A DNA stretch of 64,000 bases from Candidatus Liptonbacteria bacterium (GCA_016204385.1 JACQKW010000013.1:12507-76506); one strand, 5' to 3'. Positions 3,203 through 62,661 are shown, numbered from the stretch's first letter. The notes: generated by a model from the letters alone, not told the origin. Program-made: numbers and translations.

Positions 3203-4585
3203 TTATATCATAGATTGAATACCTCGAAGTTTTTTGTGATAGGTGATCGCAAAGCGGTGCGCTTCGTCGCGGACGCGGATGAGCGTTCTTTTCTCTACGC
3301 CCTTGGGGATTATGCCGATTATGTCGTTACGTTTCCGCTCCGGGCCTTTCGCGATGCCGATCACAGGAATTTTAAGGCCGGCCTCGGAGAGCACGTGCTT
3401 CGCCGCATTTACCTGTCCCCTGCCGCCGTCAATCAAAATGAGATTCGGAAGCGGCCACCCTAAATCGCCGTGGGCGATCGGGTGTCTGAACCGCCGCCGA
3501 AGCACTTCTTTGAGCATTCCCACATCGTCCGATTTCTGGATTGTCCGAATTTTGAACTTGCGATACTCGTTTTTATCGGGCTTGTCTCCTCTGAAAACCA
3601 CCATCGAGCCCACCGCGGACGTTCCGGAAATGTTCGAGATGTCATAGCCCTCGATGCGATAATGAGGAGTGAGAATTGAGAAGTGAGTAGTGAGCTCGTT
3701 GTCGCCGATTAAGGCAACATCCTGAATGTGCTGTAGCGCAAAAATCTGGCGGCGAATTGTTTCCGCTTTTTCAAATTCAAGCGCTTTGCTCGCCGCCTTC
3801 ATTTCATGTTCAAGCGACGTGAGGATCATCCCCTTTTTGCCGCGAAAGAACAGCTTGAGATTCTTGATATTCTTTGCATACTCTTTTTGGTTTATCGCAC
3901 CCACGCACGTGCCCGGGCAAAGCCCGATTTCATATTCAAAGCATGGCCGCCTTCGGCTCTCATAATGCGAATCTTCGAATGTGTGCGAATGCTGCCTGCC
4001 CGACTTTGCCTGAGGCAAACTCAGGCGGGCGGGCGAATTGCGAATCCACCGATTGTCGACTGGCAGATTTGGATGAGTACCATAAGGGAAAATTCGCCGC
4101 ATGATTTTGAGCGCCTCGCGGATGCTCCCGGCCGAAGTAAACGGTCCATATCTCTCCCCTGCCGGTTTGGACTTGCCTGCCTGCCCAAGGCCCCGCATTT
4201 GCGGAGCCTCGCCTTTGGCGGGGCGTGGCCGATAGACATGGCCGCGCACAAGGAGGACGCGCGGAAACGCTTCTTTCGTGAACTCCACATAGAGAAAACT
4301 CGTGTCGTCTTTCTCGCGGACATTGTAGGGCGGCTGGTGCTTCTTGATGAGTTCCGCTTCAAGAATAAGCGCCTCGATTGCCGTGTCGGTTTTCTTATAC
4401 TCGATCTTTTTAATTTCGCGTACGAGCTTTTGGATGCGGTAGTCGTGTGGGCGCAGAAAATAGCTCGACACCCGCCGCCGCAAGTTTCCCGCTTTGCCGA
4501 TGTAGAGAATTTTGCCTCTCTCGCCCTTCATGAGATAAACGCCGGGCGAAATAGGCAATTTTTCATAAAGAGTTTTCATGTTCAC
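3203..4585 (-). CDS. uvrC: excinuclease ABC subunit C (short form, no C-terminal HhH2)
   Basis: GIY-YIG N-terminus (PGVYLMKGERGKILYIGKAGNLRRRVSSYF), UVR-like helix (LEHEMKAASKALEFEKAETIRRQIFAL), and an endonuclease domain ending RDEAHRFAITYH. Contains repeat-derived in-frame inserts (see findings). Confidence 0.88.
   Translation of the reverse strand: MNMKTLYEKLPISPGVYLMKGERGKILYIGKAGNLRRRVSSYFLRPHDYRIQKLVREIKKIEYKKTDTAIEALILEAELIKKHQPPYNVREKDDTSFLYVEFTKEAFPRVLLVRGHVYRPRPAKGEAPQMRGLGQAGKSKPAGERYGPFTSAGSIREALKIMRRIFPYGTHPNLPVDNRWIRNSPARLSLPQAKSGRQHSHTFEDSHYESRRRPCFEYEIGLCPGTCVGAINQKEYAKNIKNLKLFFRGKKGMILTSLEHEMKAASKALEFEKAETIRRQIFALQHIQDVALIGDNELTTHFSILTPHYRIEGYDISNISGTSAVGSMVVFRGDKPDKNEYRKFKIRTIQKSDDVGMLKEVLRRRFRHPIAHGDLGWPLPNLILIDGGRGQVNAAKHVLSEAGLKIPVIGIAKGPERKRNDIIGIIPKGVEKRTLIRVRDEAHRFAITYHKKLRGIQSMI
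3667..3694. repeat. 4 x 7-bp tandem NNNTGAG repeat inside uvrC
   Basis: gagtgag aattgag aagtgag tagtgag. It encodes LTTHFSILTPH on the minus strand. Confidence 0.7.
3988..4045. repeat. palindromic element B, copy 1 (in frame inside uvrC)
   Basis: aatgctgcctgcccgactttgcctgaggcaaactcaggcgggcgggcgaattgcgaat. About 96% identical to 62400..62454. Internal dyad cctgagg/ctcagg and outer gcctgcccg/cgggcgggc. Confidence 0.85.
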
Positions 4586-4653: not shown

Positions 4654-4692
4654 TACTGTCCTGTTTGACGACCGTTCAGTAGGACAGTAATT
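4654..4692. repeat. hairpin element F, copy 1
   Basis: tactgtcctgtttgacgaccgttcagtaggacagtaatt with an 8-bp stem actgtcct/aggacagt. Paralogous to 9578..9616. Confidence 0.7.
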
Positions 4693-4781: not shown

Positions 4782-7700
4782 CTACCGTTCGTACATTTTC
4801 CAGTTCCCGAGCATGATCTGTCCGATGCTCGTGTCCTGCCACACGACATCCCAACCCCTCAACGCAGTCGGCGATAAAGGATCGTACCTCAAGATCGTTG
4901 GCGGCGATGGCAGCGTTACGCTGAGCGGAAGGTTGGTCCCGGGGTTCACGACAATGATTTCGTCTTTTGTGTCGGGCCCAACCACAAGCGCGATCAATTC
5001 TGCTCGAAGTCGGGCCTCCTGCGCCGCTATTTTCCCTAATTTTTGGTCCTCATTCTTTTTGTCCTTTGCATCGGTTGAGCTTATAAGCGCGCTCAATTCC
5101 GCTCGAAGTCGGGCTTCCTGCGCCAATAGTTTCTCTAATTTTTTGCCCTCATTCTTGCCGTGTGTTTCATTTTGTCTGCCGTTCTTCCCTTTTCCATTCG
5201 AGTCGAGCGGAGTGCCGAGCGTTTCTTCATCGGGCGGCGGCGGCGCGAACACATTTGGCCTTGTGTTGGGCGCGTTCACATTCCCTGCGTAGAGACGGTC
5301 GCCGGAGCGGAGTTGGTGGACGCCAAACATGCTCCCTTCAAGAGGCCCGGTAAAGTATTTGAGCGACCACGTGCTTGAGGGAGCATTGAAGTTTTGCGCA
5401 TGCAGGAATGACGGATTATGGCTTATCAATTCGTCTACCCCGTCCCCGTCAATATCCGCAGAGAGAAAAGCATCTTCTAAACTGTGGCCTGTCACGCCAA
5501 GATTCCATGACCCGATTGTACCGAACACGCGAGGTGTAACGAGGCGGTCTGGACTGTCGTTCCACTGCGTGACCCAATCGTTGAATGCAGTATTGAAGTT
5601 TTGGATCTGTGCGTTTGTGCCGTCGTTCACACCATCTCTATTCTGGTCACCGTCACGACCTTGAAATATGTTTAGGAGGCCTATGGTCGAAAAGAGACTT
5701 TGGGTGGACGTTGCTGCATCAAGATTCAGAAAGTTGAACTGATCTCCGAATCGAATCGGCCAACTTGATTCGTTTCCACATCCTCGTGGGCTACATACGC
5801 TTGAAGCCGTCAGCTGATGCGAATACCTTGCCATTTCCTGCCAAGGATCTGCTCCACCTCGGAAGCGGATAATGCTTGCCTCGGAAATTCCGCCTGCTCC
5901 CGGGGAGAAGCGCTCGCGAGCATTATTCCCGATATAAGGATACATGATGAGCATTTCCTCCCGCTCGTCCGGCTCGTTCCCGAAATTCCCGATATTTCCA
6001 AATATGATCATGTCCGTGGGATGCAGTTTCCACGGGCCCAGCATGCCGCTAATAATGCCGCTCACGCTGTCCCGGTTATCCCACACGGTTTCCCACGAAT
6101 AGGTCGCGGTCGCGCAGTCAAACCCGCCGCTCCGGAAGATTTTCTGGAGCATGGCGCGCGCCGGAGTCCCCGCGCTTATGCTTAAAAGTTCTGCTCTCCC
6201 CTCAAGCGCGAAGAGCCGCGTTTCGGGCAGGAAGAACCGGTCGCCCTTGTCTATCGTCCACGCGCCAAGCGAACCCTGTCCTTGCGAAATGACATTCCAG
6301 ATACCGTCCCTGAATTGCTGAACCATGAATTTTTTCGTCATCGTGTTTACGGTGAGCACCTCGTTTCCGCATCCGGTCATGTCGCCCACGAGCACGATGT
6401 CGCTTGACGGTATTTTCCCTTTGTCGGCATAGGTTCCGTCGCTCCACAACAGCTTATTAGAAAATTCTTCCTGCGAAGTGAACCTGTCCAATTCGTTGAA
6501 AATAAAAGCTTCGGTCGAGGTTGGGGGCCTCACGCCGGCGGTAAAGACGTGTTCCACATTAACTGGCTCGTACCAAATGGCGTCAAACGGGGAGTTCGAT
6601 TTGACGTTCGGATCCATTTGGAATCCAAACTTCGATTGGTCTTCCGGCGCGTACCAGATGTCGCTTGGGACGGTTTGCGGTCCTGCTACGCCATACTCAA
6701 CCTCAGTAACCCATCCGTAGCTTATTTCTTTCCGGGTGGTGACATTTTCGGTGACCGAACTTGTGCCCGCCGCTTCATAATTCAATGCGCTAAAGAGAGG
6801 GATAAACGGGCTGTGATCGAGCTGAGATGTGATATTGCACGGCGGCCCGTTTTCGCATCTCAACATAGCTGGAGCCGTTGAGTTGTTGAACTTATCTTTA
6901 AGCTTTCGCGCCGCAAAGGTTGAGCCGCCGGGGATCATATCCAAATCCTGCCATCCGCTTAAAATTTCATATTCGTAAGATAAATATAACGATCTGCCTA
7001 TGGGAATTCGTATAGGAGGACCAAAGGGATCTAAGGGATTTGGAATTATGATAAACCCGGCTGGCTTTGTTACCCACGCATCGAGAATTCTCTCTCCCGC
7101 AGTTCTCGAAACCCCTTCGGTTCGAGCATCAATATCAAGGCCGTACCACAAGCTTCTGAAAGTGATGGACTCGAGATGTTCAAACGTTCGGGCAAGAAAG
7201 TCGTTAGATTGCTTTACTACATTATCCTGGGTAAGTCCCTGGCCGCTCCCCTGCGACATCGCCACCTTTCGCAGTTTCTGCGGCATACCGGTGCCGCCGT
7301 TTAACGCCCTCACCTCGTCGTAGAACCTGGAGTGATAGCTATCCGGGAATACCAAGCCGGTATTGTAGTGCCGCCGGAGCAGTTCCTTTGCCGCTGGGCT
7401 GTTGATGGCAATGCGGAACGGTATTGCGTCGTCGTTAAATTGCGAGAGGAAATCGAAAAGTCCCTGCAAGCTCACGGGAATGTGGGCGCCCACAAACGGG
7501 CCGTCAATCGCGATCCAGAGGCCCGTGTGGTGGTCTATGTTCTGCCCCTCGAGCTTCGCCAAGGCATAGCGCGTAACCTGCGTGCCCATCGAACCCGCCA
7601 TTACGATAGCCCGCTGGTTTTCATATCCCGGCTTCATGGTAAGCCACGGCTTGGGAAGATGAATGTTTTTCAAAATCTCCATAAGCGCAAATGCATTCCT

Positions 7701-9338
7701 CTGGATAAAATCCTGGCCGTTCGCGTAATCCACGAGAAGAACGTCATACCCTTTGTCACGCATCTTGTTGACGGTCGGTTCCAGATCGCGGTACAAAGTG
7801 GTTGGAGTCCTGTTCTGCTCTATGTCAAAGCCGTCCACAAGAATGACTAAATTTTTTACAAAGCAACGGTCGGGATCAAAAACAGGTTTCCGATACGTCG
7901 CAGGATAGATGCGCGTGTTTAAAATGCCGGAGGCCGTGTTGCCCAAGTAGTCAGCGTAGAGAGGGCCGGTTACTTTAGGATCCTCTCGTTCTTGGTCATG
8001 AATTCCCAGCCAATCGATTACTTGAGACAAGTCGGCGATGGTGTAGCGGTAGGGGGCAAAGAATACCGGCCAAGGAATTTCGGCTGAATTCCACCACGGA
8101 GGAGTGCTTGTCGCATTAAAGAACGCTCCGGCGCTTGTCTGCGGCGGCCACTCCGCCTCTGGCCACCATACTGGCCTCACCTTAGGAAACTTTCCCTGAA
8201 GAAGCTTTGGAATGCTGCAATCGGTTCCCCTGTTCCCGCCGGGCGGCGGATAGTAATCAACGGTACCCACCGCGTATCGGACTTGGCCATCAATGGTTGC
8301 GCGGATGTGATAGGTGAGGTGCGCCACCATAGTGACGCCTGGCGGCGCCTCTTGCACGAATGTTGCCCGGGACATGTCCCACGGATATTTTTGATCGAGT
8401 TCAACGGGGATAAACGTGTCCGGACTAATGCCGTCTCCGCGCGGCACGCCGGGAAATCTGATGGCAAGGTCAGTAACCGTCTTTGAAGCCGGGTTCTTGA
8501 TTGCAAACTGCGATGGCAGTGAAAAAAGCAGGTAGTTTCCGATCGTGCCGTCGGCCTTCTCATTCAAAAATCCTGTGCCGAAGAAAAGAGAGGTGAGCGG
8601 CGTGGTTGAACTCGCGGGAGTTTCTTTGACATAAGAAATTCTCCCGTCTCCGCGAACCCAATTCTTCTGAAAATCTTGATTGAAAGGAGTGCTTGTTGGA
8701 TATGGAGTCCCGTCTTCATAGAAAAGACTTAGGCGGCCGTTCGTAAAATCCTCCGGATTGAGTTCGTTGTAGTCTATGGCGCCGATCGCGATTGGATTCA
8801 CGCCGCCCTCGACGATCGGCTGCGCCGCCAATGCAAGATTATCCGCCTTCGGCAGGAGATTTTCATTCGTAAACGCACTCCTCCGAAGATCCCCGTACGC
8901 ATTCCGAAGATCGGAGTGGGAAAGCTTGATAGCTTCAAACGTCTGTGGCAAACCCTCGGTCGCAATGCCATTCGCCTTCTTTACGAGGTCCGTATATAAT
9001 ATCGAACCCATGTCAAGCAGGATGCCGGTCCCGATCTTCGCCGCAGGATAGTTTTCATACGTTTCTCTAGTGTTATCTCGAAACGTCGGCAGCGGGCCTT
9101 GGTTCCCTCCACCAAACGGGTCTAGGTTATCACCAGGGTTTTTGATTATCGGCGTCGTGCCGCCGATGGGAAAATCTATGGGCGGTTCTGCACAGTTATC
9201 GAGGAGAGCGCAGTTGTCGCCCGGAAATTGGGCGTACGCGACAAATGCGAACAGAAAAACGGCAAGCGTGGCAAAGCTCGCCGCAAGAATTATCTGTAGC
9301 TTTTTTCCGCCGACCCAGCTTGTAAGATGAGGCGACAT
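4782..9338 (-). CDS. giant secreted protein (~1518 aa) with lipase-like alpha/beta-hydrolase core, FG-GAP/VCBS-like segment and C-terminal coiled-coil repeats
   Basis: Signal anchor KKLQIILAASFATLAVFLFAFVAYA. Nucleophile-elbow-like AGSMG in RAIVMAGSMGTQVTRYAL. DIDGDGVDELI calcium-binding/FG-GAP-like motif. 33-aa tandem repeat (AQEARLRAEL...). The ORF-track start at 9392 lies in repeat DNA; the start at 9338 (MSPHLTSWVGGKK) is preferred. Confidence 0.75.
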   Translation of the reverse strand: MSPHLTSWVGGKKLQIILAASFATLAVFLFAFVAYAQFPGDNCALLDNCAEPPIDFPIGGTTPIIKNPGDNLDPFGGGNQGPLPTFRDNTRETYENYPAAKIGTGILLDMGSILYTDLVKKANGIATEGLPQTFEAIKLSHSDLRNAYGDLRRSAFTNENLLPKADNLALAAQPIVEGGVNPIAIGAIDYNELNPEDFTNGRLSLFYEDGTPYPTSTPFNQDFQKNWVRGDGRISYVKETPASSTTPLTSLFFGTGFLNEKADGTIGNYLLFSLPSQFAIKNPASKTVTDLAIRFPGVPRGDGISPDTFIPVELDQKYPWDMSRATFVQEAPPGVTMVAHLTYHIRATIDGQVRYAVGTVDYYPPPGGNRGTDCSIPKLLQGKFPKVRPVWWPEAEWPPQTSAGAFFNATSTPPWWNSAEIPWPVFFAPYRYTIADLSQVIDWLGIHDQEREDPKVTGPLYADYLGNTASGILNTRIYPATYRKPVFDPDRCFVKNLVILVDGFDIEQNRTPTTLYRDLEPTVNKMRDKGYDVLLVDYANGQDFIQRNAFALMEILKNIHLPKPWLTMKPGYENQRAIVMAGSMGTQVTRYALAKLEGQNIDHHTGLWIAIDGPFVGAHIPVSLQGLFDFLSQFNDDAIPFRIAINSPAAKELLRRHYNTGLVFPDSYHSRFYDEVRALNGGTGMPQKLRKVAMSQGSGQGLTQDNVVKQSNDFLARTFEHLESITFRSLWYGLDIDARTEGVSRTAGERILDAWVTKPAGFIIIPNPLDPFGPPIRIPIGRSLYLSYEYEILSGWQDLDMIPGGSTFAARKLKDKFNNSTAPAMLRCENGPPCNITSQLDHSPFIPLFSALNYEAAGTSSVTENVTTRKEISYGWVTEVEYGVAGPQTVPSDIWYAPEDQSKFGFQMDPNVKSNSPFDAIWYEPVNVEHVFTAGVRPPTSTEAFIFNELDRFTSQEEFSNKLLWSDGTYADKGKIPSSDIVLVGDMTGCGNEVLTVNTMTKKFMVQQFRDGIWNVISQGQGSLGAWTIDKGDRFFLPETRLFALEGRAELLSISAGTPARAMLQKIFRSGGFDCATATYSWETVWDNRDSVSGIISGMLGPWKLHPTDMIIFGNIGNFGNEPDEREEMLIMYPYIGNNARERFSPGAGGISEASIIRFRGGADPWQEMARYSHQLTASSVCSPRGCGNESSWPIRFGDQFNFLNLDAATSTQSLFSTIGLLNIFQGRDGDQNRDGVNDGTNAQIQNFNTAFNDWVTQWNDSPDRLVTPRVFGTIGSWNLGVTGHSLEDAFLSADIDGDGVDELISHNPSFLHAQNFNAPSSTWSLKYFTGPLEGSMFGVHQLRSGDRLYAGNVNAPNTRPNVFAPPPPDEETLGTPLDSNGKGKNGRQNETHGKNEGKKLEKLLAQEARLRAELSALISSTDAKDKKNEDQKLGKIAAQEARLRAELIALVVGPDTKDEIIVVNPGTNLPLSVTLPSPPTILRYDPLSPTALRGWDVVWQDTSIGQIMLGNWKMYER
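4986..5160. repeat. 2 x 99-bp tandem repeat inside the giant gene
   Basis: aagcgcgatcaattctgctcgaagtcggg... at 4986 and aagcgcgctcaattccgctcgaagtcggg... at 5085. Period 99 bp = 33 aa. Confidence 0.8.
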
Positions 9339-9382
9339 GTGAGTATGTGGAGAGCATAGTGCGGGGGGCTTAGGGGTGTCAA

Positions 9383-9521
9383 ACCCCCACACCTAACGTG
9401 GAGGTGTATTCACCTCGAAGCCCACACAATTCTTCACTACTCGTTGTTTTGGGGCATACCCTGTTTCAAGCAGATAACGCAGAATACCTTTTGCTTCGCG
9501 CTCCCCGTTAGGTGTGGGGGT
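9383..9521. repeat. 16-bp perfect inverted repeats flanking a 107-bp segment upstream of the giant gene
   Basis: acccccacacctaacg (9383-9398) and cgttaggtgtgggggt (9506-9521). Confidence 0.85.
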
Positions 9522-9577: not shown

Positions 9578-9616
9578 TATTGTCCTGTCTGACGGTCGTT
9601 CAATGGGACAGTAATT
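9578..9616. repeat. hairpin element F, copy 2
   Basis: tattgtcctgtctgacggtcgttcaatgggacagtaatt. About 81-88 bp further on it is followed by an aaaaaagaccgccc terminator-like hairpin (9667-9698), the same layout as copy 1. Confidence 0.7.
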
Positions 9617-23830: not shown

Positions 23831-25222
23831 TTAAATCTTCTCGAGTAATTTAATGAGGAGCCGCATCGGCGCGCCTGCCGCGCCTTTCGATAAAAATTCC
23901 CCCTCGATCGCCGTCATGCGCGGCGCGATGTCAATGTGGACCCAAGGATATTTCTTCGCGAACGCATAAAGGAATACTGCGCCCAGCACGGCACCTCCGT
24001 ATCGCGATCTGCGAATATGATCGTTCGCAATATCGCCAAATGTTCCTTTGATATCTTCCTTATACTCGTCCCATAAGGGCATTGGCCAGACGTAATCCCC
24101 GCTTTCTTCGCCGAGTTTACGGACGAGGTGTTCCAATTTCTCGTCTTTTGTAAAAATTGCCGATGCGCGCTCACCAAGCGCCACCACCGCGGCGCCGGTC
24201 AAGGTCGCCACATCAACAACCAATCGCGGCTTGTATCTTTCCGCATAGGTAAGCGCGTCTGCGAGGATAATCCTGCCTTCCGCGTCAGTATTCAAGACCT
24301 CGATCGTTTTCCCTGACATTGATCGGAGCACGTCGCCCGGGCGGTAACTCGAGCCGGACGGCATGTTTTCCACGGCAGGAATGAGGCCGATTACATGCTT
24401 TTTAAGGCCTAATTTTGCCGCGAGCACCGCGGTGTGGATCACCGCCGCGCCCCCGGACATATCAAGATGCATATCGCTCATTCCTTCTGTTGATTTGAGA
24501 TTCAGGCCGCCGGTATCAAACGTAACCCCTTTTCCCACGAGCACGATCGGCTTGCCTGGCACGCCGCGGTATTCGAGAATGATGAATCTCGGCTCTTCGC
24601 TCGAGCCCTGCGAGACCCCGAGAATCGCACCCATCTTAAGTTTCTTGATATCTCTCACGCCGAGGATCTTTACTTTCACCTTCGTGCCTCGCGCCGCTTT
24701 CTTCGCCTCGTCCGCGAGAATCGTGGGCGTCATCATCCCGGCGGGGGTATTCGCTAATGCGCGGCATGCGTTTACTTCCTCGCCGATGCGCTGTCCCCGG
24801 ATAAATGCATTCCGCACCGCGCGGTCAACGTTTCCCGTGACTATGACCGTTTTCACAAAACGCCAGCCGTCGGGAGGGGGTGTTTTATAGGAAACGAATT
24901 CGAAGTTCGCCATTTCAAAATTCGTCGCAATGAGTTCTGCGGCATCGGTGCGGGACAATTCCAAATGCGGGAGAAGAAGATCGTCAAAGCGGAATCTAAA
25001 TATCGCTATCCGGTGCGCTTTTGCAATCGTGACTATCTTGCGAAGGAGGTTGAGGTAGTGCCGGCGGCTGACCTGTTCTTTCCCGATTCCTACCGAGAGC
25101 ATTTTTTTTCCGCTTGGGAGGCGCACAAGCGAACTTTCTTCAGCCGCTTCAAATTGTATCGAAGCAACTTTATTTTTTTTATGAAGCTTTTTTGCAAGGA
25201 CAAATTGGATCTTCTTATGCAT
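23831..25222 (-). CDS. pepA: leucyl aminopeptidase (M17)
   Basis: NTDAEGRIILADAL signature, VGKGVTFDTGG, DMSGGAAV. Confidence 0.9.
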   Translation of the reverse strand: MHKKIQFVLAKKLHKKNKVASIQFEAAEESSLVRLPSGKKMLSVGIGKEQVSRRHYLNLLRKIVTIAKAHRIAIFRFRFDDLLLPHLELSRTDAAELIATNFEMANFEFVSYKTPPPDGWRFVKTVIVTGNVDRAVRNAFIRGQRIGEEVNACRALANTPAGMMTPTILADEAKKAARGTKVKVKILGVRDIKKLKMGAILGVSQGSSEEPRFIILEYRGVPGKPIVLVGKGVTFDTGGLNLKSTEGMSDMHLDMSGGAAVIHTAVLAAKLGLKKHVIGLIPAVENMPSGSSYRPGDVLRSMSGKTIEVLNTDAEGRIILADALTYAERYKPRLVVDVATLTGAAVVALGERASAIFTKDEKLEHLVRKLGEESGDYVWPMPLWDEYKEDIKGTFGDIANDHIRRSRYGGAVLGAVFLYAFAKKYPWVHIDIAPRMTAIEGEFLSKGAAGAPMRLLIKLLEKI

Positions 25223-26069
25223 TGGCGTGTTGCGATGTGCGAATCATTATATTCTTTTTTTGCCTCGTAAGAAAGCCCTCGTGCGCAAGCTCTGCGAGCG
25301 CGAGAGAGATTTTTCCCGGAGATTCATCGAGCAATGCCGCGATCTTCTCTTTGCGCATCGAGCGGGATTTGAGAAGCAGCGCGACGATCTTTCCGCGAAG
25401 TTCGCGAGTTGAGCCCGAAAAACGCGGCTGTGTTCTGTGCAGTGCGCTTTTCCTGTTGGGATTTACTCCACTCCTCCCAAGCATTGCCCCGTAATCCATG
25501 AGCGCCGAGTACCACTCCCGGGGATTGCGCCGGTCCATGGTTCGCGAGATAAGCGGGAAAATTTCCTCATCGCGTACTTTTCGCTGGTGCGGGAAAAAGA
25601 AATGGATAAACGTGCGCCGTATATTCGTTTCAATGAAGGGTGCGGGGATATTGAATGCGAATGCCGCGATTGCGCCGGCGGTGCCCGGCCCTATCCCCGG
25701 CAGTTTCTCAAGCACTCGCGGGTCGTGAGGAAGCCTGCCGCGGAAGCGGCCCGCGACGATCCCGCTTAGTTTTTTAAGCCCGAGCGCGCGGCGGTTATAC
25801 CCCAATCCCCTCCACGAAAGAAGAATACTGCGGGGAGAAGCCCGAGCGAGAGATTGAAAATTCGGAAAGCGCTTAATGAAGCGGTGATACGTTCGAAGCA
25901 CCCGCGAGACCTGCGTTTGCTGAAGCATTATTTCCGAGACGAGTATCCGGTAAGGGTTTTTTGTGTTGCGCCACGGGAGATTTCTTCCGTGGCGCAGGTA
26001 GTGGCTGCGAATCGCTTTTTTGAACCTTGCGATTGCCCGGATCGGCACATTCCCTCGTGCCTTATTCAT
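25215..26069 (-). CDS. HhH-GPD DNA glycosylase, MutY/EndoIII-related, no Fe-S cysteines, C-terminal wHTH-like tail
   Basis: LPWRNTKNPYRILVSEIMLQQTQVSRV is MutY-like. HhH LPGIGPGTAGAIAAFAF. No Cys cluster and no NUDIX domain. Confidence 0.75.
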   Translation of the reverse strand: MNKARGNVPIRAIARFKKAIRSHYLRHGRNLPWRNTKNPYRILVSEIMLQQTQVSRVLRTYHRFIKRFPNFQSLARASPRSILLSWRGLGYNRRALGLKKLSGIVAGRFRGRLPHDPRVLEKLPGIGPGTAGAIAAFAFNIPAPFIETNIRRTFIHFFFPHQRKVRDEEIFPLISRTMDRRNPREWYSALMDYGAMLGRSGVNPNRKSALHRTQPRFSGSTRELRGKIVALLLKSRSMRKEKIAALLDESPGKISLALAELAHEGFLTRQKKNIMIRTSQHANA

Positions 26070-35552: not shown

Positions 35553-35652
35553 TGTGATGCCAATATGCGAATCTAATGCCAATCTACAAATTGCGAATAT
35601 GGTGTTTTATTCGCAATTCGCAATATTTGCATGAAATTTGTAGATTTGCATC
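35553..35652. repeat. intergenic repeat element A, copy 1 (between hpf and secA)
   Basis: Contains the dyad gccaatctacaaatt (35578-35592) / aatttgtagatttgc (35635-49) and attgcgaat/attcgcaat words. Shares gatgcaaatctacaaatt..atgc.aata..attgcgaata..tagattggcatta with 62368..62487 in the opposite orientation. Confidence 0.75.
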
Positions 35653-35989
35653 ATCTTACACAGCGCGATCGTCGTGTATAGCGGGTTCTGTATTTTTCTA
35701 TTTCTGCTCGAAGTTTGCTTCTGAGGATATCTATCGCGATCCTCAAATCCATTGCCTCGTGGAATGCGCGGAGTATTTTCCCGGGAAGCCGGAGGTCTGC
35801 TTCCGCTCGGAACACGTTTCCTTTGTGGTGATGGCGGGTGGTCCGCGAGACCTCGAGATACACCTCGGCGACCCCCGCAAGGTCAAAACGCCTCACGAAC
35901 TTTGAGAGCCCCCCGATTTTTTCTTCGATATACGCGCGAAGGCTTGGCGTAAGGCCCACGCTGCTCGCTTCGGTGATATGGATACGCAT
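35651..35989 (-). CDS. hpf: ribosome hibernation promoting factor (RaiA/HPF family)
   Basis: MRIHITEASSVGLTPSLRAYIEEKIGGLSKF...FRAEADLRLPGKILRA is typical S30AE/HPF. Confidence 0.85.
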   Translation of the reverse strand: MRIHITEASSVGLTPSLRAYIEEKIGGLSKFVRRFDLAGVAEVYLEVSRTTRHHHKGNVFRAEADLRLPGKILRAFHEAMDLRIAIDILRSKLRAEIEKYRTRYTRRSRCVR

Positions 35990-47233: not shown

Positions 47234-47287
47234 ATTCGTACACCTGCCCGTCTGCCTGCCTCTGACATGGCCTCCGGCGGGAATTAG
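47234..47287. repeat. element C, copy 1 (downstream of cfa)
   Basis: attcgtacacctgcccgtctgcctgcctctgacatggcctccggcgggaattag. About 83% identical to 48494..48547, same orientation. Confidence 0.8.
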
Positions 47288-47323: not shown

Positions 47324-48448
47324 TCAGCGTTCCGAGCGGTAACCGCCGGGCGCGCCGCGTTTTGAAAATACTATCTGCCACAACTGCAGTTCACGCGCGC
47401 GAAACGTTCCCGCTGATGCGAGAAGATAATATTTCCACATGCGGTAGAATCGCTCGCCATATTTCTTTTTCAGTGCCGGCCAGCGGGCATCGAAGTTGCG
47501 AAACCATGCCATGAGCGTGGCGTCGTAATCGGCGCCGAAATTATGCCAGTCATCCATCACGAAAAGCCTTTCCGCTGCTTTCCCAATCTGCGCGATTGAC
47601 GGAATCATTCCCACGGGGAAAATATACTTGCGTATCCAGGGATCGGTACTTGTTCTTGAAACGTTGCTCCCGATCGTGTGAAGGAGAAAAAGCCCGCTCT
47701 CTTTGAGGACGCGGCGCGCCGTTTTCATAAACACACGATGGTTTTTGTAGCCCACATGCTCGAACATGCCAACCGACACCACGCGATCAAACAAGCCGCG
47801 AACACTCCGATAATCTTCGAGCCGAATGTGAACCGGGAGCCCGCGGCAGCATTCCGCGGCACGCGCCGCTTGTTCCTTCGAAACGGTCACCCCCGTCACC
47901 TTCGCTCCGTAGCGCTCTGCGGCATACTTCGCGAAACCGCCCCAGCCGCACCCGATGTCGAGCACCTCCATCCCGGGTTTCAAGAAAAGTTTGCGGCAGA
48001 TGAGATCAAGTTTTGCTTCTTGCGCCTCGGCGAGCGTTCGCGCCCCGCCATTCCAATACGCGCAACTGTAGATCATATACGGATCGAGCATCGCGTGAAA
48101 GAGGTCGTTGCCCAGGTCATAATGCCGCTCGCCGATCACAAACGCTTTTGATCTCCGCCCTTCATTCACGAGCAGGGCGGCGAGGCCCAAAAGAATAACG
48201 CGCACGCTCTTCCGCGCCTTCTCTCGAAGCCCGGAGTGTGTAATTTTCTCTATGAGCGTATCAATCGCTCCGCACTCCCACCATCCGTCCATATATGATT
48301 CGCCGAACCCCATGCTTCCGTGCCGAAGCACGCGCGGGTAGAACCGCTCGTCGAGAACCTTGATATCCCACGGATCAGGACCGTCTACTGTGATTCCCGC
48401 GGCCGAGAAAAGCGCCTTAATGACTTTTTTAGAAAACTGGTTGCTCAT
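47324..48448 (-). CDS. cfa: cyclopropane-fatty-acyl-phospholipid synthase
   Basis: VLDIGCGWGGFAKYAAERYG SAM motif, MFEHVG, and a C-terminal CFA synthase pattern. Start at MSNQFSKK preferred. Confidence 0.9.
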   Translation of the reverse strand: MSNQFSKKVIKALFSAAGITVDGPDPWDIKVLDERFYPRVLRHGSMGFGESYMDGWWECGAIDTLIEKITHSGLREKARKSVRVILLGLAALLVNEGRRSKAFVIGERHYDLGNDLFHAMLDPYMIYSCAYWNGGARTLAEAQEAKLDLICRKLFLKPGMEVLDIGCGWGGFAKYAAERYGAKVTGVTVSKEQAARAAECCRGLPVHIRLEDYRSVRGLFDRVVSVGMFEHVGYKNHRVFMKTARRVLKESGLFLLHTIGSNVSRTSTDPWIRKYIFPVGMIPSIAQIGKAAERLFVMDDWHNFGADYDATLMAWFRNFDARWPALKKKYGERFYRMWKYYLLASAGTFRARELQLWQIVFSKRGAPGGYRSER

Positions 48449-48493
48449 CCCGTATTCTTTAATAGATTTTACCTCGCCGCAAACTCCTCGCCT

Positions 48494-48547
48494 ATTCACG
48501 CGCCTGCCCGTCCGCCTGTCTCTGACATGGCCTCTCGCGCGAATTAG
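48494..48547. repeat. element C, copy 2 (upstream of cfa), splitting an ATTCGCGCGAAT-type palindrome
   Basis: attcacgcgcctgcccgtccgcctgtctctgacatggcctctcgcgcgaattag. Confidence 0.8.
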
Positions 48548-49916: not shown

Positions 49917-50017
49917 CCGGGTCGTCCCCGGCTTGGATAGTTACTCGCGTAGCTCTCTCGAGTCGGGGCATTGCCCCTTAATTATCTATACAAGTATAAC
50001 CGATTTTTCAGGATAAA
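49917..50017. repeat. ~100-bp direct repeat, left copy
   Basis: ...cggcttggatagttactcgcgtagctctctcgagtcggggcattgccccttaattatctatacaagtataaccgatttttcagg... matches 53076..53174 at about 85-90%. Confidence 0.85.
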
Positions 50018-53075: not shown

Positions 53076-53174
53076 CCGGGTTGGCCTCGGCTTGGATAGT
53101 TACTCACGTAGCTCTCTCGAGTCGGGGTATTGCCCCATTAACTCGTACAGTATAACCGATTTTTTGAGGAAAAT
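53076..53174. repeat. ~100-bp direct repeat, right copy
   Basis: ...cggcttggatagttactcacgtagctctctcgagtcggggtattgccccattaactcgtacagtataaccgattttttgagg... Confidence 0.85.
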
Positions 53175-53237: not shown

Positions 53238-54683
53238 ATGGTCACCAAAAAACAAAAACAAATTTGGGATTTTGTTCAAAAATTTCTTTCCCAAAAAGGA
53301 TTCTCTCCCACCCACGAAGAAATAAGAAAACATTTCAAACTTCGGGCTGTTTCAACGGTTGCGCAGCATATTAAAGCACTAGAAAATAAGGGGCTTATTG
53401 CCAAACAAAGCAATCAAAGACGCGGTATTGAAATCACAAAATCAGAGCCGTTAGTAAAAATTCCCCTCCTCGGCACAATTAGTGCGGGTCAACCCATAGA
53501 AGCAATTCAAGACAAGGAAATGATCGCTGTTCCTAAGAGCAAAATTCCTCCTTCGTCAGAAGTTTATGCTCTCCGGGTAGTCGGCAGTAGTATGGTTGAT
53601 GAAAATATAAATGATGGGGACATTGTTTTGGTCCGCCAACAAGCAACAGCAGAGAATGGGCAAAAAGTTGTAGCTCTTATTGATAACCACGATGCGACAC
53701 TAAAGAAGTTTTATAAAGAGCGAGGGTATGTCCGTTTGCAACCAGCAAACAAAACTATGGAGCCGCTTATTTTCCGAAACGGGCGGGATATTTCAATACA
53801 AGGGATAGTGCTTGATGTTATTCGCGAGGAGGGAAATTCTAAGATTCAATTATCAGAGGAATATAAAGAATCGGGAAGGAGTCTATTACAAAATGCATAT
53901 TATAAAAAGCAGGGATTTATTCTGTATCATGGAAATTCTTTAGGTATCCTATCTAAACTTCCGGAAGCTTCCGTAGATATGATTTTTTCAGATCCTCCGT
54001 ACAATCTTTCAAATGGAGGGTTTACTGTCCACGCGGGTAGAATGGTTAGTGTTAATAAAGGTGAGTGGGATAGAAGTAAGGGATTTCAGGATGATTACGA
54101 CTTCCATTACAATTGGCTCGCGGCCGCTAAAAGGGTTTTGAAGCCTGGTGGTAGTTTATGGGTTAGTGGAACCTATCATTCGATTTACCAATGCGGTTAT
54201 GCACTTCAGGCTCTTGGCTACCATATTTTGAATGACATCTCGTGGTTTAAGCCCAATGCGGCGCCAAATTTAAGTTGTAGATTTTTCACGGCGAGTCATG
54301 AAACTTTAATATGGGCGAGGAAAGAAAAAAAAGGAAAACATATTTTTAATTATAAAACGATGAAAGATGGGATTTGGAATGGAGACTTTCTCAAAAAACC
54401 TAATATGCAAATGCGTTCAGTGTGGGCTATTGGAACTCCAAAACCAGAAGAAAAAAAATTTGGCAAACATCCAACCCAAAAACCTTATGAACTATTGAAG
54501 CGCATTGTTCTTGCCAGCACTAACAAGGGAGATTTAATTATTGATCCTTTTACCGGTAGTTCAACAACGGGCATGGCGGCATATCTCCAAAACAGAAATT
54601 TCATCGGTATCGATACCGAAAAGAAATATTTAGATTTATCTATCAAGAGATTGGAAGATCTGAGTAAAAGATCTCTAGTATAG
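53238..54683 (+). CDS. LexA-like repressor (wHTH + S24 peptidase) fused to beta-class N6A/N4C DNA methyltransferase (CcrM/HinfI-like)
   Basis: Residues 1-200 contain the LexA DNA-binding domain (THEEIRKHFKLRAVSTVAQHIKALENKGLI), the cleavage site ISA83-G84QP, GSS117M and ATLK155KF. Residues about 230-481 contain FSDPPYNL (motif IV) followed by IIDPFTGSSTTGMAA (motif I), i.e. beta-class order. TATAAT (53226-53231) ends 7 nt before the ATG, so the transcript may be leaderless. Confidence 0.85.
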   Translation: MVTKKQKQIWDFVQKFLSQKGFSPTHEEIRKHFKLRAVSTVAQHIKALENKGLIAKQSNQRRGIEITKSEPLVKIPLLGTISAGQPIEAIQDKEMIAVPKSKIPPSSEVYALRVVGSSMVDENINDGDIVLVRQQATAENGQKVVALIDNHDATLKKFYKERGYVRLQPANKTMEPLIFRNGRDISIQGIVLDVIREEGNSKIQLSEEYKESGRSLLQNAYYKKQGFILYHGNSLGILSKLPEASVDMIFSDPPYNLSNGGFTVHAGRMVSVNKGEWDRSKGFQDDYDFHYNWLAAAKRVLKPGGSLWVSGTYHSIYQCGYALQALGYHILNDISWFKPNAAPNLSCRFFTASHETLIWARKEKKGKHIFNYKTMKDGIWNGDFLKKPNMQMRSVWAIGTPKPEEKKFGKHPTQKPYELLKRIVLASTNKGDLIIDPFTGSSTTGMAAYLQNRNFIGIDTEKKYLDLSIKRLEDLSKRSLV

Positions 54684-62367: not shown

Positions 62368-62487
62368 GCGTGATGCAAATCTACAAATTTTATGCCAATA
62401 ATGCCTGCCCGACTTTGCCTGAGGCAAGCTCAGGCGGGCGGGCAAATTGCGAATACGGATTAGTGATCATTAGATTGGCATTATCAT
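62368..62487. repeat. repeat element A copy 2, with element B (62400..62454) nested inside
   Basis: gatgcaaatctacaaattttatgccaata[B]cggattagtgatcattagattggcattatcatc. The B core is gcctgcccgactttgcctgaggcaagctcaggcgggcgggc. Confidence 0.8.
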
Positions 62488-62661
62488 CAACAAAAAACGG
62501 CCCTTCCAAAGACCGTTCAGCTAACTCTTAGCCCATTAGCTATTCGCCATAAGCTATCTGCCAGCTTCCTCGGCGGGGTTTGCGCAGTGCTTCGATCCAC
62601 AAAAAAACTGCAACCCGCGGTCTTCGGAATTGGCTTTAGTATACCTCCTGCCCTGCTCTTG

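What the first reader, a model, noticed from the sequence alone, without database searches (positions are those of the whole stretch)
3950..4080. Intergenic palindromic element present in frame inside uvrC (RPE-like)
A 58-bp segment of uvrC (3988-4045) reads aatgctgcctgcccgactttgcctgaggcaaactcaggcgggcgggcgaattgcgaat. It is about 96% identical to an intergenic element nested in the rplJ upstream region (62400-62454).

Its flanks in uvrC (tgcgaat, attcgca words) resemble the intergenic repeat family A.

It is translated as part of an insert of about 40 aa (THPNLPVDNRWIRNSPARLSLPQAKSGRQHSHTFEDSHYES). The insert lies between the conserved RRIFPYG and RRRPCFEYEIGLCPGTCVG blocks, where other UvrC proteins have a short Cys-containing linker.

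A second GC-rich insert (RPRPAKGEAPQMRGLGQAGKSKPAGE, about 4150-4240) contains the related gcctgcctgccc motif.

This is the pattern known from Rickettsia palindromic elements (selfish repeats tolerated in frame in protein genes). It would be new for this kind of genome.
Basis: partly seen in the sequence, partly recalled or inferred. Interest (0 to 1): 0.65.

Follow-up and report, generated by a model that had tools for sequence, protein, structure and literature searches.

The report
Palindromic repeat element inside uvrC
A DNA-repair gene (uvrC) of an ultra-small CPR bacterium carries, in frame, a ~114-base palindromic repeat that also occurs between genes, showing that these streamlined genomes tolerate repeat DNA inside essential proteins much as Rickettsia does.

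Summary
Window 3984-4045, inside uvrC, and 62393-62454, upstream of rplJ, share a 62-nt block at 92% identity. The 41-nt hairpin core differs at one base, with 0 matches expected by chance.

The uvrC segment is a composite element of about 114 nt (3962-4076). It has two parts:
- **Family A arms.** An AT-rich palindrome of TGCGAAT/ATTCGCA words. The family is widespread in CPR/Patescibacteria: 87 stretches in species-representative genomes against about 0.07 expected. It sits in frame in Fpg, UvrA, MurC, MurD, DnaX, TopA and Wzy proteins, and also lies directly upstream of start codons.
- **GC hairpin module.** A rare ~39-nt module nested at the family-A centre. Three copies are known. The third is identical and lies intergenically in another Parcubacteria lineage.

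UvrC orthologues have an 11-13-aa linker at this site. Many carry different repeat families there instead. Two genes that are 90% identical differ completely at both variable sites, which indicates fast turnover. AlphaFold gives no confident structure for the inserts.

No transposase, target duplication or known RNA family was found. The second GC-rich insert is not demonstrably related. The element works like Rickettsia palindromic elements but belongs to new families. I found no prior report for CPR.

The parts
3203..4585 (-). uvrC coding sequence (460 aa from GTG; the database entry starts at M3 and is 458 aa). It has GIY-YIG, UVR and RNase H-like nuclease domains and no (HhH)2 domain.
   Evidence: ORF list, Pfam, 100% match to a Candidatus Liptonbacteria UvrC. 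All columns invariant across 30 orthologues are kept.
3962..4076 (.). Composite palindromic element in frame in uvrC, about 114 nt or 38 codons. In gene sense it reads: decayed family-A left arm (CATCCAAATCTGCC...), GC hairpin module, then well-preserved family-A right arm (...GCATTCGCACACATTCGAAGATTCGCATTAT).
   Evidence: Orthologue DNA comparison. nhmmer profile of family-A arms places the right arm at 3962-3995, E 2.6e-10. Terminus AGATTTGGATGA at 4065-4076, compared with consensus AGATTYGCATYA, was read from the sequence.
3984..4045 (+). 62-nt block shared with the rplJ-upstream copy at 92% identity. The surrounding arms are only 42-51% identical.
3995..4034 (+). GC-rich hairpin module of about 39-40 nt: a 9-bp GC stem including one G-T/G-U pair, a 6-nt bulge ACTTTG, a 7-bp stem CCTGAGG/ACTCAGG (uvrC copy; in the rplJ-upstream copy the last pair is G·G) and a 5-nt loop. 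It is translated as ...SPARLSLPQAKSGRQ... on the minus strand.
   Evidence: RNA fold -32.6 kcal/mol, z -4.4. Boundaries come from the filled versus empty comparison of L001 and L100. Frames.
62371..62489 (.). Intergenic composite copy: a family-A palindrome (TGATGCAAATC...GGCATTATCATCA) with the GC module at its centre. It lies in the rplJ 5' leader and ends 8 nt before the rplJ ATG (62362, minus strand).
   Evidence: I1; z -3.5; identical in two other assemblies. Context.
62403..62443 (+). GC hairpin core of the intergenic copy. Its single difference from the uvrC copy is A to G in the loop.
35555..35653 (.). Family-A palindrome without a GC module. It fills the gap between the stop of the hpf-like gene and the secA start, ending 9 nt before the secA ATG at 35545.
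   Evidence: (z -3.4).
4175..4240 (-). Second insert, at site 1 of UvrC: about 22 extra residues (HVYRPRPAKGEAPQMRGLGQAG) compared with the 10-aa baseline GKxKPxGxRY. Its origin is unresolved and it is not shown to be part of the element.
   Evidence: No other copy and no significant fold.
62483..62645 (-). Context: a sub-threshold match to the ribosomal protein L10 leader, directly 5' of the intergenic composite element on the rplJ transcript.
   Evidence: Rfam RF00557, 34.1 bits against a gathering score of 44, E 5e-4. Promoter-like site at 62665-62638 and terminator-like hairpin at 62518-62495.

Best explanation
The uvrC segment is a copy of non-coding repeat DNA that landed in, or was recombined into, the stretch encoding a length-tolerant linker of UvrC. 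That linker joins the GIY-YIG nuclease domain to the Cys-rich/UVR region. The copy is kept because it is 38 codons long, has no stop codon in the frame used, and encodes a hydrophilic, unstructured peptide.

The element has two tiers. The outer tier is family A, an AT-rich palindrome of TGCGAAT/ATTCGCA words. It is a repeat found across CPR, in gene-to-gene gaps, in 5' leaders and in frame in many housekeeping proteins. The inner tier is a discrete GC-rich hairpin of about 39 nt. It sits at the centre of a family-A palindrome in all three known copies, always immediately 5' of C(G/A)AATT, with no target duplication.

Shown:
- Repeat status and the nesting of the two tiers.
- In-frame status, and the existence of insert-free orthologues.
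- Turnover at the site.
- Occurrence across several lineages.

Inferred:
- The element has a selfish, mobile origin.
- The GC module arrived later than the arms.
- The GC module spreads like a REP or IS200/IS605-type hairpin, acted on in trans by an enzyme that was not found, or by gene conversion between family-A copies.
- The peptide has no required function.
For: **Repeat and hairpin**
- Repeat beyond chance.
- Strong hairpin, z -4.4.

**Two tiers of different age**
- Sharp identity step between copies: block 92%, arms 42-51%.
- Third copy (L001) has an identical 45-nt core. It lies in an intergenic family-A element of a lower-GC Parcubacteria lineage related to Yanofskybacteria.
- The L100 arm GCGATGCGAATTTAC|GAATTCATGCGAATGATGCGAA compared with L001, which has the 39-nt module at the bar, is an empty versus filled pair.

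**Family A is a real repeat family**
- 87 stretches in GTDB species representatives against about 0.07 expected, nearly all in CPR.
- The uvrC arm is the best window hit of a profile built from those copies.
- In-frame copies in Fpg, UvrA, MurC, DnaX, TopA, MurD and two Wzy proteins.
- Other copies lie just upstream of start codons.

**The site is an insertion hotspot**
- The baseline linker is 11-13 aa. At least 14 of 120 orthologues carry family-A peptides and 6 carry another repeat family.
- Carriers are scattered on the tree.
- P0014 and P0022 are 90% identical in DNA yet entirely different at both variable sites.

**The gene is intact and the sequence is real**
- All invariant residues are kept.
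- Both inserts have pLDDT below 50 and no secondary structure.
- Independent assemblies confirm both copies.
Against: - Only three copies of the GC module are known, and only one is coding. Scans of species-representative genomes, viral contigs and 680 kb of CPR loci found no more.
- No transposase, integrase or HUH enzyme is encoded in the window.
- No target-site duplication was found for either tier.
- No autonomous parent element is known, so mobility is inferred only from distribution.
- Family-A sequence at the same codon position in several orthologues, with very similar right arms, could partly reflect shared descent rather than independent insertion.
- Low pLDDT also covers the conserved Cys motif (170-230). 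It therefore shows lack of confident structure, not proven surface exposure.
- There is no transcript or protein evidence that the full-length product is made.
Confidence: 0.8

Rival explanations
1. The GC module spread between pre-existing family-A copies by homologous recombination or gene conversion, not by transposition. On this view the uvrC family-A element is old, and the hairpin was copied into it from the rplJ-upstream copy or the reverse.
For: - The 62-nt high-identity block is flanked by family-A words that could serve as homology.
- No transposase and no target duplication were found.
- Family-A is present at the same uvrC site in other lineages.
- The copy number is low.
Against: - The homology arms are short and only 42-51% identical beyond the block.
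- An identical module occurs in a different lineage and genomic context. That still needs horizontal movement.
- The insertion point is the same short motif in all three copies, which suits a site-directed enzyme at least as well.
Confidence: 0.25
2. The GC hairpin is a functional structured RNA or protein-binding site, for example a regulatory hairpin of the rplJ leader. Its presence in uvrC is a by-product or has a regulatory role there.
For: - Very stable hairpin.
- Near-perfect sequence conservation across two lineages, with the only substitution in the loop.
- One copy lies in the rplJ 5' leader, next to an L10-leader-like structure.
Against: - No Rfam family matches.
- No T-run, so it is not an intrinsic terminator.
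- Its orientation relative to transcription is opposite in L001 and in the two window copies.
- It is always embedded in a repeat element rather than at a fixed distance from a gene.
- With three near-identical copies there is no covariation to test.
Confidence: 0.1
3. The segment is ordinary lineage-specific UvrC linker sequence, and the similarity to intergenic DNA is secondary or coincidental.
For: - The linker is variable in length in this clade.
- Several orthologues share the ...HSHxFVDSHY... peptide.
Against: - A 62-nt match at 92% has zero chance expectation.
- The same module lies in an intergenic palindrome in another organism.
- The arm matches a repeat family with 87 stretches elsewhere.
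- Insert-free orthologues are interleaved with carriers.
- The insert peptide has no homologue among 1.84 billion representatives.
Confidence: 0.03
4. Assembly or binning artefact, or uvrC is a decaying pseudogene.
For: - The genome is a metagenome-assembled genome.
- An independent contig breaks inside the hairpin.
Against: - Independent assemblies reproduce the intergenic copy exactly.
- They also reproduce the junction from the element into the 3' part of uvrC.
- The ORF is intact with all invariant residues and all three domains.
- The 5' junction was not independently confirmed.
Confidence: 0.03

Closest known systems
Rickettsia palindromic elements (RPEs)
   Same: - Small palindromic repeats of about 100-150 bp in reduced genomes.
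- Present in both non-coding and coding DNA.
- Inserted in frame in unrelated housekeeping genes without destroying them.
- Several families coexist.
- The encoded peptides fall in permissive regions (PMC10969869, PMC1166351).

Here family A is in frame in UvrC, UvrA, Fpg, MurC, MurD, DnaX, TopA and Wzy, as well as in intergenic DNA.
   Different: - A different phylum (CPR/Patescibacteria) and unrelated sequence families.
- The element here is two-tiered, with a GC hairpin nested in an AT-rich word palindrome.
- Copy number per genome looks much lower: three family-A elements in 64 kb, compared with hundreds of RPEs per genome.
- The same two UvrC sites are hit repeatedly by different families, with rapid turnover.
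[quoted passage not shown] ERIC, Correia, QMITE
   Same: - Short and non-autonomous, with inverted-repeat arms and no ORF.
- Multi-copy.
- Occasional in-frame intragenic copies (PMC10969869, PMC2759123).
   Different: - No target-site duplication was detected.
- No parent IS with matching ends is known.
- The arms are built of reiterated 7-nt words rather than a single terminal inverted repeat.
REP sequences with RAYT enzymes, and IS200/IS605-type palindrome-associated elements
   Same: - The GC module is an imperfect GC-rich hairpin of about 39 nt.
- It is inserted without target duplication next to a short fixed motif.
- This is how hairpin-recognising Y1/HUH transposases behave (own knowledge).
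   Different: - No GTAG head in the module.
- Only three copies are known, one of them inside a gene.
- No Y1/HUH gene in the window.
- It targets another repeat element rather than extragenic DNA in general.

Membership tests
Rickettsia palindromic elements (RPE-1 to RPE-10) | Sequence homology to one of the RPE family consensus sequences, in Rickettsia or Rickettsiales | not testable with these tools
   No RPE models or Rickettsia genomes are available here. The host is Candidatus Liptonbacteria, and the family-A pattern hit almost only CPR genomes. I do not file it as an RPE.
Rickettsia palindromic elements (functional class) | Palindromic repeat present in both non-coding and coding regions | tested here: met
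   Family A has 89 copies. About 19 lie in long ORFs and 8 were confirmed inside known proteins; the rest are intergenic. The GC module has 1 coding and 2 intergenic copies.
Rickettsia palindromic elements (functional class) | In-frame insertion that leaves the host protein's conserved domains intact | tested here: met
   The uvrC ORF is intact with all invariant residues and three Pfam domains. In the Fpg host, the N-terminal domain model of 117 positions spans 149 residues.
Rickettsia palindromic elements (functional class) | Inserted peptide lies in a surface or loop region compatible with the fold | tested here: inconclusive
   In the AF2 model, residues 118-137 and 170-230 have pLDDT below 50 and no secondary structure. 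This is consistent with disordered linkers, but the low-confidence stretch also covers the conserved Cys motif.
MITE | Terminal inverted repeats, small size, no transposase ORF | tested here: met
   Family-A copies run T[AG]ATGCxAATCTACxAAT...ATTxGTAGATTxGCAT[TC]A and are 53-164 nt long. They fold as long palindromes, z about -3.4.
MITE | Target-site duplication flanking the element | tested here: not met
   Flanks of 21 well-delimited copies show no direct duplication. Only a conserved T follows the right end.
MITE | Related autonomous IS with the same ends | not tested
   No transposase in the 69 window ORFs. The rest of the genome and other genomes were not screened.
REP / RAYT | Imperfect palindrome of 20-40 nt | tested here: met
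   GC module of about 39 nt; hairpin -32.6 kcal/mol, z -4.4.
REP / RAYT | Conserved GTAG head, high copy number, extragenic location, RAYT gene in the genome | tested here: not met
   - No GTAG in the module.
- Three copies known.
- One copy is intragenic.
- No Y1 transposase domain in the window; the whole genome was not available.
IS200/IS605-type palindrome-associated elements | Insertion without duplication next to a specific short motif | tested here: inconclusive
   All three copies sit immediately 5' of C[GA]AATT, and the L001 versus L100 comparison shows at most a 1-nt ambiguity. However, n = 3 and the motif is common in family A.
Intrinsic terminator | GC hairpin followed by a T-run | tested here: not met
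   No T-run follows the hairpin on either strand. The only terminator-like site is at 62518-62495, outside the element.
Known structured RNA (Rfam) | Match to a covariance model | tested here: not met
   No family matches the element at gathering or E<=1 level apart from noise. The L10-leader hit is adjacent to the element, not on it.

The most novel reading that the evidence does not exclude
CPR bacteria carry a phylum-wide system of AT-rich word palindromes (family A). These repeatedly colonise and replace each other at permissive loops of essential proteins and at positions 6-13 nt upstream of start codons. A second-order GC hairpin parasitises the centres of these palindromes and moves between Parcubacteria lineages. 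It would be an element that targets another element, mobilised by a hairpin-recognising enzyme not yet identified. Family-A ends might also act as portable translation-start or promoter contexts.
Probability: 0.3. Interest if true: 0.75.

Novelty: new member of a known kind. Interest (0 to 1): 0.6.

Why it matters
CPR/Patescibacteria genomes are about 1 Mb and are regarded as streamlined and poor in mobile DNA. This finding points the other way in four respects.

- They harbour a widespread family of palindromic repeats that sit in frame inside core replication, repair and cell-wall proteins. This parallels Rickettsia, the textbook case, in a completely different reduced-genome lineage. It suggests that tolerance of coding palindromes recurs in small genomes under weak selection.
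- It explains many odd, low-complexity 'inserts' and length differences in CPR proteins, which complicate annotation, alignment and phylogeny.
- It gives markers for very recent genome change: sister genes 90% identical differ at these sites.
- It gives a concrete search target, a hairpin module with a fixed insertion motif, for an unknown mobilising enzyme.

Tried and rejected
- **GC core in species-representative genomes.** Exact-pattern scan found 0 hits, so this MAG is not in that set.
- **GC core in viral contigs.** 0 hits.
- **Insert peptide against 1.84 billion representatives.** Exhaustive HMMER with the 41-aa peptide gave only two hits, both unrelated repetitive proteins and therefore spurious.
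- **Four open frames of the core, concatenated.** The word-index protein search returned nothing. It did not even retrieve the source protein, so this is a weak negative.
- **Target-site duplications around family A.** None found.
- **GC-rich centres in other family-A copies.** None of 27 has one.
- **Second insert as a related palindrome.** Rejected: 10-nt match only, fold z -0.8 and -1.7.
- **Single ancestral insertion in UvrC.** Rejected by the tree and by the P0014/P0022 pair.
- **Known RNA family or terminator.** Rejected.
- **Transposase in the window.** None.
- **Independent contig with full-length uvrC.** Look-ups with both start variants found no record. Only the 3' junction could be confirmed.
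- **A fuzzy-regex search.** Timed out and was replaced by BLAST.

Full report
**1. Observation**

The window comes from a Candidatus Liptonbacteria genome (CPR/Parcubacteria). The uvrC product is 100% identical to a database entry of that name. uvrC is 3203..4585 on the minus strand and encodes 460 aa. It has GIY-YIG, UVR and RNase H-like nuclease domains and no (HhH)2 domain.

- 3984-4045 and 62393-62454 share 62 nt at 92% identity.
- The 41-nt core differs at one base, and 100 shuffles gave no match.
- The core folds into a very stable hairpin: -32.6 kcal/mol, z -4.4 on the + strand. It is slightly weaker on the minus strand because one stem pair is G-U.
- In uvrC the segment is read in frame as part of aa 170-210, window 3956-4078.

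**2. Anatomy: two tiers**

The two window copies align beyond the shared block, but identity drops sharply. It is 92% in the block and 42-51% in the arms.

The arms are made of TGCGAAT/ATTCGCA-type words arranged as a long imperfect palindrome. The rplJ-upstream copy (62371-62489) and a third element at 35555-35653 fold as long palindromes, z about -3.4. The 35555-35653 element has no GC core. In the uvrC copy only the right arm is well preserved.

A profile built solely from copies in other genomes ranks the uvrC right arm (3962-3995) as the best hit in the whole window, E 2.6e-10. The uvrC insert is therefore one composite element of about 114 nt (3962-4076). It consists of a family-A palindrome with a GC hairpin at its centre.

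**3. The GC module**

One scan of JGI metagenomes found a single further copy, L001. It is intergenic, downstream of a pilO gene. Its genome has lower GC (44.7% against 51.4%), and its PilO is closest among named genomes to Yanofskybacteria. The 45-nt core is identical to the uvrC copy and is again nested in a family-A element. Its orientation relative to the flanking genes is opposite to that of the window copies.

Contigs carrying the closest pilO orthologue (L100, L101) have a family-A palindrome whose left arm reads GCGATGCGAATTTAC|GAATTCATGCGAATGATGCGAA. L001 has GCGATGCTAATCTAC, then the 39-nt module, then the same 23 nt. This gives three conclusions.
- The module is a discrete insertion of about 39 nt.
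- It has no target duplication beyond one ambiguous C.
- In all three copies it lies immediately 5' of C(G/A)AATT.

No other relatives were found in species-representative genomes, viral contigs or 680 kb of CPR loci. None of 27 well-delimited family-A copies elsewhere has a GC-rich centre.

**4. Family A is a CPR-wide repeat found in and out of genes**

A 28-position pattern for the right arm gave 87 stretches in one-genome-per-species data, where about 0.07 would be expected (my own estimate from the pattern's information content). Nearly all are in CPR MAGs of many classes, and often several occur per genome.

Of 89 copies, most lie where only short ORFs are possible. About 19 lie in stop-free stretches of 200 aa or more.

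| Locus | Host protein (Pfam) |
|---|---|
| L008 | Fpg |
| L024 | UvrA |
| L025 | MurC |
| L034 | DnaX |
| L042 | Topoisomerase I |
| L073 | MurD |
| L023, L045 | Two Wzy-type O-antigen ligases |

In these proteins the element is read as 'NANLQIYAN(D/T)xN' or 'SRHSHTFVDSHY'. Both frames are hydrophilic. The hydrophobic frames appear only in read-through upstream of true start codons. This suggests that selection filters which insertions survive.

**5. The uvrC site is a hotspot with turnover**

Among 120 Parcubacteria UvrC orthologues the linker between RIFPxSxH and RPCF(D/E)YE is 11-13 aa at baseline.
- At least 14 orthologues carry 30-50-aa family-A peptides.
- 6 carry another family ('PSTELRTG...LYPERSRR').
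- Some carry yet others.
- A second site after the GIY-YIG domain behaves in the same way.

DNA of P0006, P0013 and P0048 shows family-A palindromes at the very same codon position. Their right arms are nearly identical to the window's, and they have no GC module. P0026 has an 11-aa linker.

On an insert-masked tree the carriers are scattered among insert-free sequences. P0014 and P0022 are 90% identical in nucleotide sequence across the gene. Even so, they have completely different sequence at both sites, including a GC-rich palindrome of about 105 nt in P0022.

This rules out a single ancestral protein segment. It shows replacement on a much shorter timescale than gene divergence.

**6. Is the gene functional and the sequence real?**

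The ORF keeps every column that is invariant across 30 orthologues. In an AlphaFold model (mean pLDDT 72), residues 118-137 and 170-230 have pLDDT below 50 and no secondary structure, while the nuclease domains are confident.

Two independent assemblies are identical to the window across the rplJ-upstream element. Another assembly starts inside the hairpin and is identical through the right arm into uvrC. A break at that point is what a repeated palindrome would cause. The 5' junction could not be checked.

**7. What it is not**

- No Rfam family matches the element.
- No T-run follows the hairpin, so it is not a terminator.
- None of the 69 window ORFs has a transposase, integrase or HUH domain.
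- Family A shows no target duplication.
- The second GC-rich insert of UvrC (about 4175-4240) shares only a 10-nt word with the core, has no other copy and does not fold significantly. Its origin is open.

**8. Mechanism**

Best supported (confidence about 0.8): repeat DNA entered a length-tolerant linker of UvrC. It persists because it is a multiple of three, stop-free and hydrophilic in the frame used.

The GC module is a younger, discrete insertion at the centre of family-A palindromes. How it moves is inferred, not shown. One possibility is a REP or IS200/IS605-like hairpin acted on in trans. The other is gene conversion between family-A copies, combined with horizontal exchange.

**9. Comparison and novelty**

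Functionally this matches Rickettsia palindromic elements. Those are small palindromic repeats that invade coding and non-coding DNA of a reduced genome and are fused in frame to unrelated genes (PMC10969869, PMC1166351).

It is not a member of those families. It also lacks the target duplications of classical MITEs and the GTAG head, high copy number and RAYT gene of REPs.

Four full-text searches of open-access papers and bioRxiv found no description of such elements in CPR. That library is incomplete, so prior description cannot be excluded.

I rate it a new member of a known kind, of moderate to high interest.

Noticed in passing
window 53238-54683 (+): A single ORF combines a LexA DNA-binding domain, the S24 self-cleaving peptidase domain and an N6/N4 DNA methyltransferase domain. 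This would be a LexA-methylase fusion.
   Followed up: no
window 49917-49977 and 53076-53136: 61-nt direct repeats (92% identity) bracket a 3.1-kb segment holding a NYN-domain gene and two genes without Pfam hits. The segment lies directly next to the LexA-methylase gene. The repeats may be att-like ends of a small island.
   Followed up: no
window 47234-47287 and 48494-48547: A 54-nt repeat (83% identity, containing CCTGCCCG) lies on both sides of a cyclopropane-fatty-acid-synthase-type methyltransferase gene (47324..48499). Both copies are intergenic.
   Followed up: partly
window 35555-35653, 62371-62489; L100 2640-2735; L032, L033, L092: Family-A palindromes repeatedly end 6-13 nt upstream of start codons (rplJ, secA, pilB, pth, rplC, galU) with no obvious Shine-Dalgarno sequence between. 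The 35555-35653 copy also supplies the TGA stop of the preceding hpf-like gene. The ends may act as a start-site or promoter context.
   Followed up: partly
window 62483-62645 (-): Sub-threshold L10-leader match (34 bits against a gathering score of 44, E 5e-4). It is preceded by a near-consensus promoter (62665-62638) and followed by a terminator-like hairpin (62518-62495). The composite element is inserted between this leader and the rplJ start.
   Followed up: partly
window 3203-4585 and 120 orthologues (P0001-P0120): All Parcubacteria UvrC orthologues retrieved are 380-484 aa and end after the RNase H-like domain. They lack the C-terminal (HhH)2 DNA-binding domain of canonical UvrC.
   Followed up: no
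UvrC orthologues P0007, P0013, P0022, P0025, P0041, P0079, P0082, P0104; L073 (MurD): Other repeat-derived peptide families recur in frame. 'ERTQINADNFRRKSA..SQRKSA', 'KRLAPSL...ERSAQFSAG' and 'PSTELRTG...LYPERSRR' occur at the two UvrC hotspots. 'INADK / QRKNQHKSA' occurs in a MurD that also carries family A.
   Followed up: partly
window 4654-4692 and 9578-9616; 9383-9403 and 9501-9521: Hairpin-containing repeats flank the 1536-aa gene 4782..9392, which has no Pfam domain. One of them lies between that gene and uvrC.
   Followed up: no
window 25652-25671 (-): Weak family-A arm match (E 3e-3) inside an HhH-GPD glycosylase gene (25215..26069). It may be a decayed in-frame remnant or chance.
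   Followed up: no
L022, L032, L041, L048, L055, L060, L065, L066, L068, L069: Several genomes with family-A copies are labelled 'uncultured Gammaproteobacteria' in their record titles, although the element is otherwise confined to CPR. This may be mislabelling of MAGs or a wider host range.
   Followed up: no
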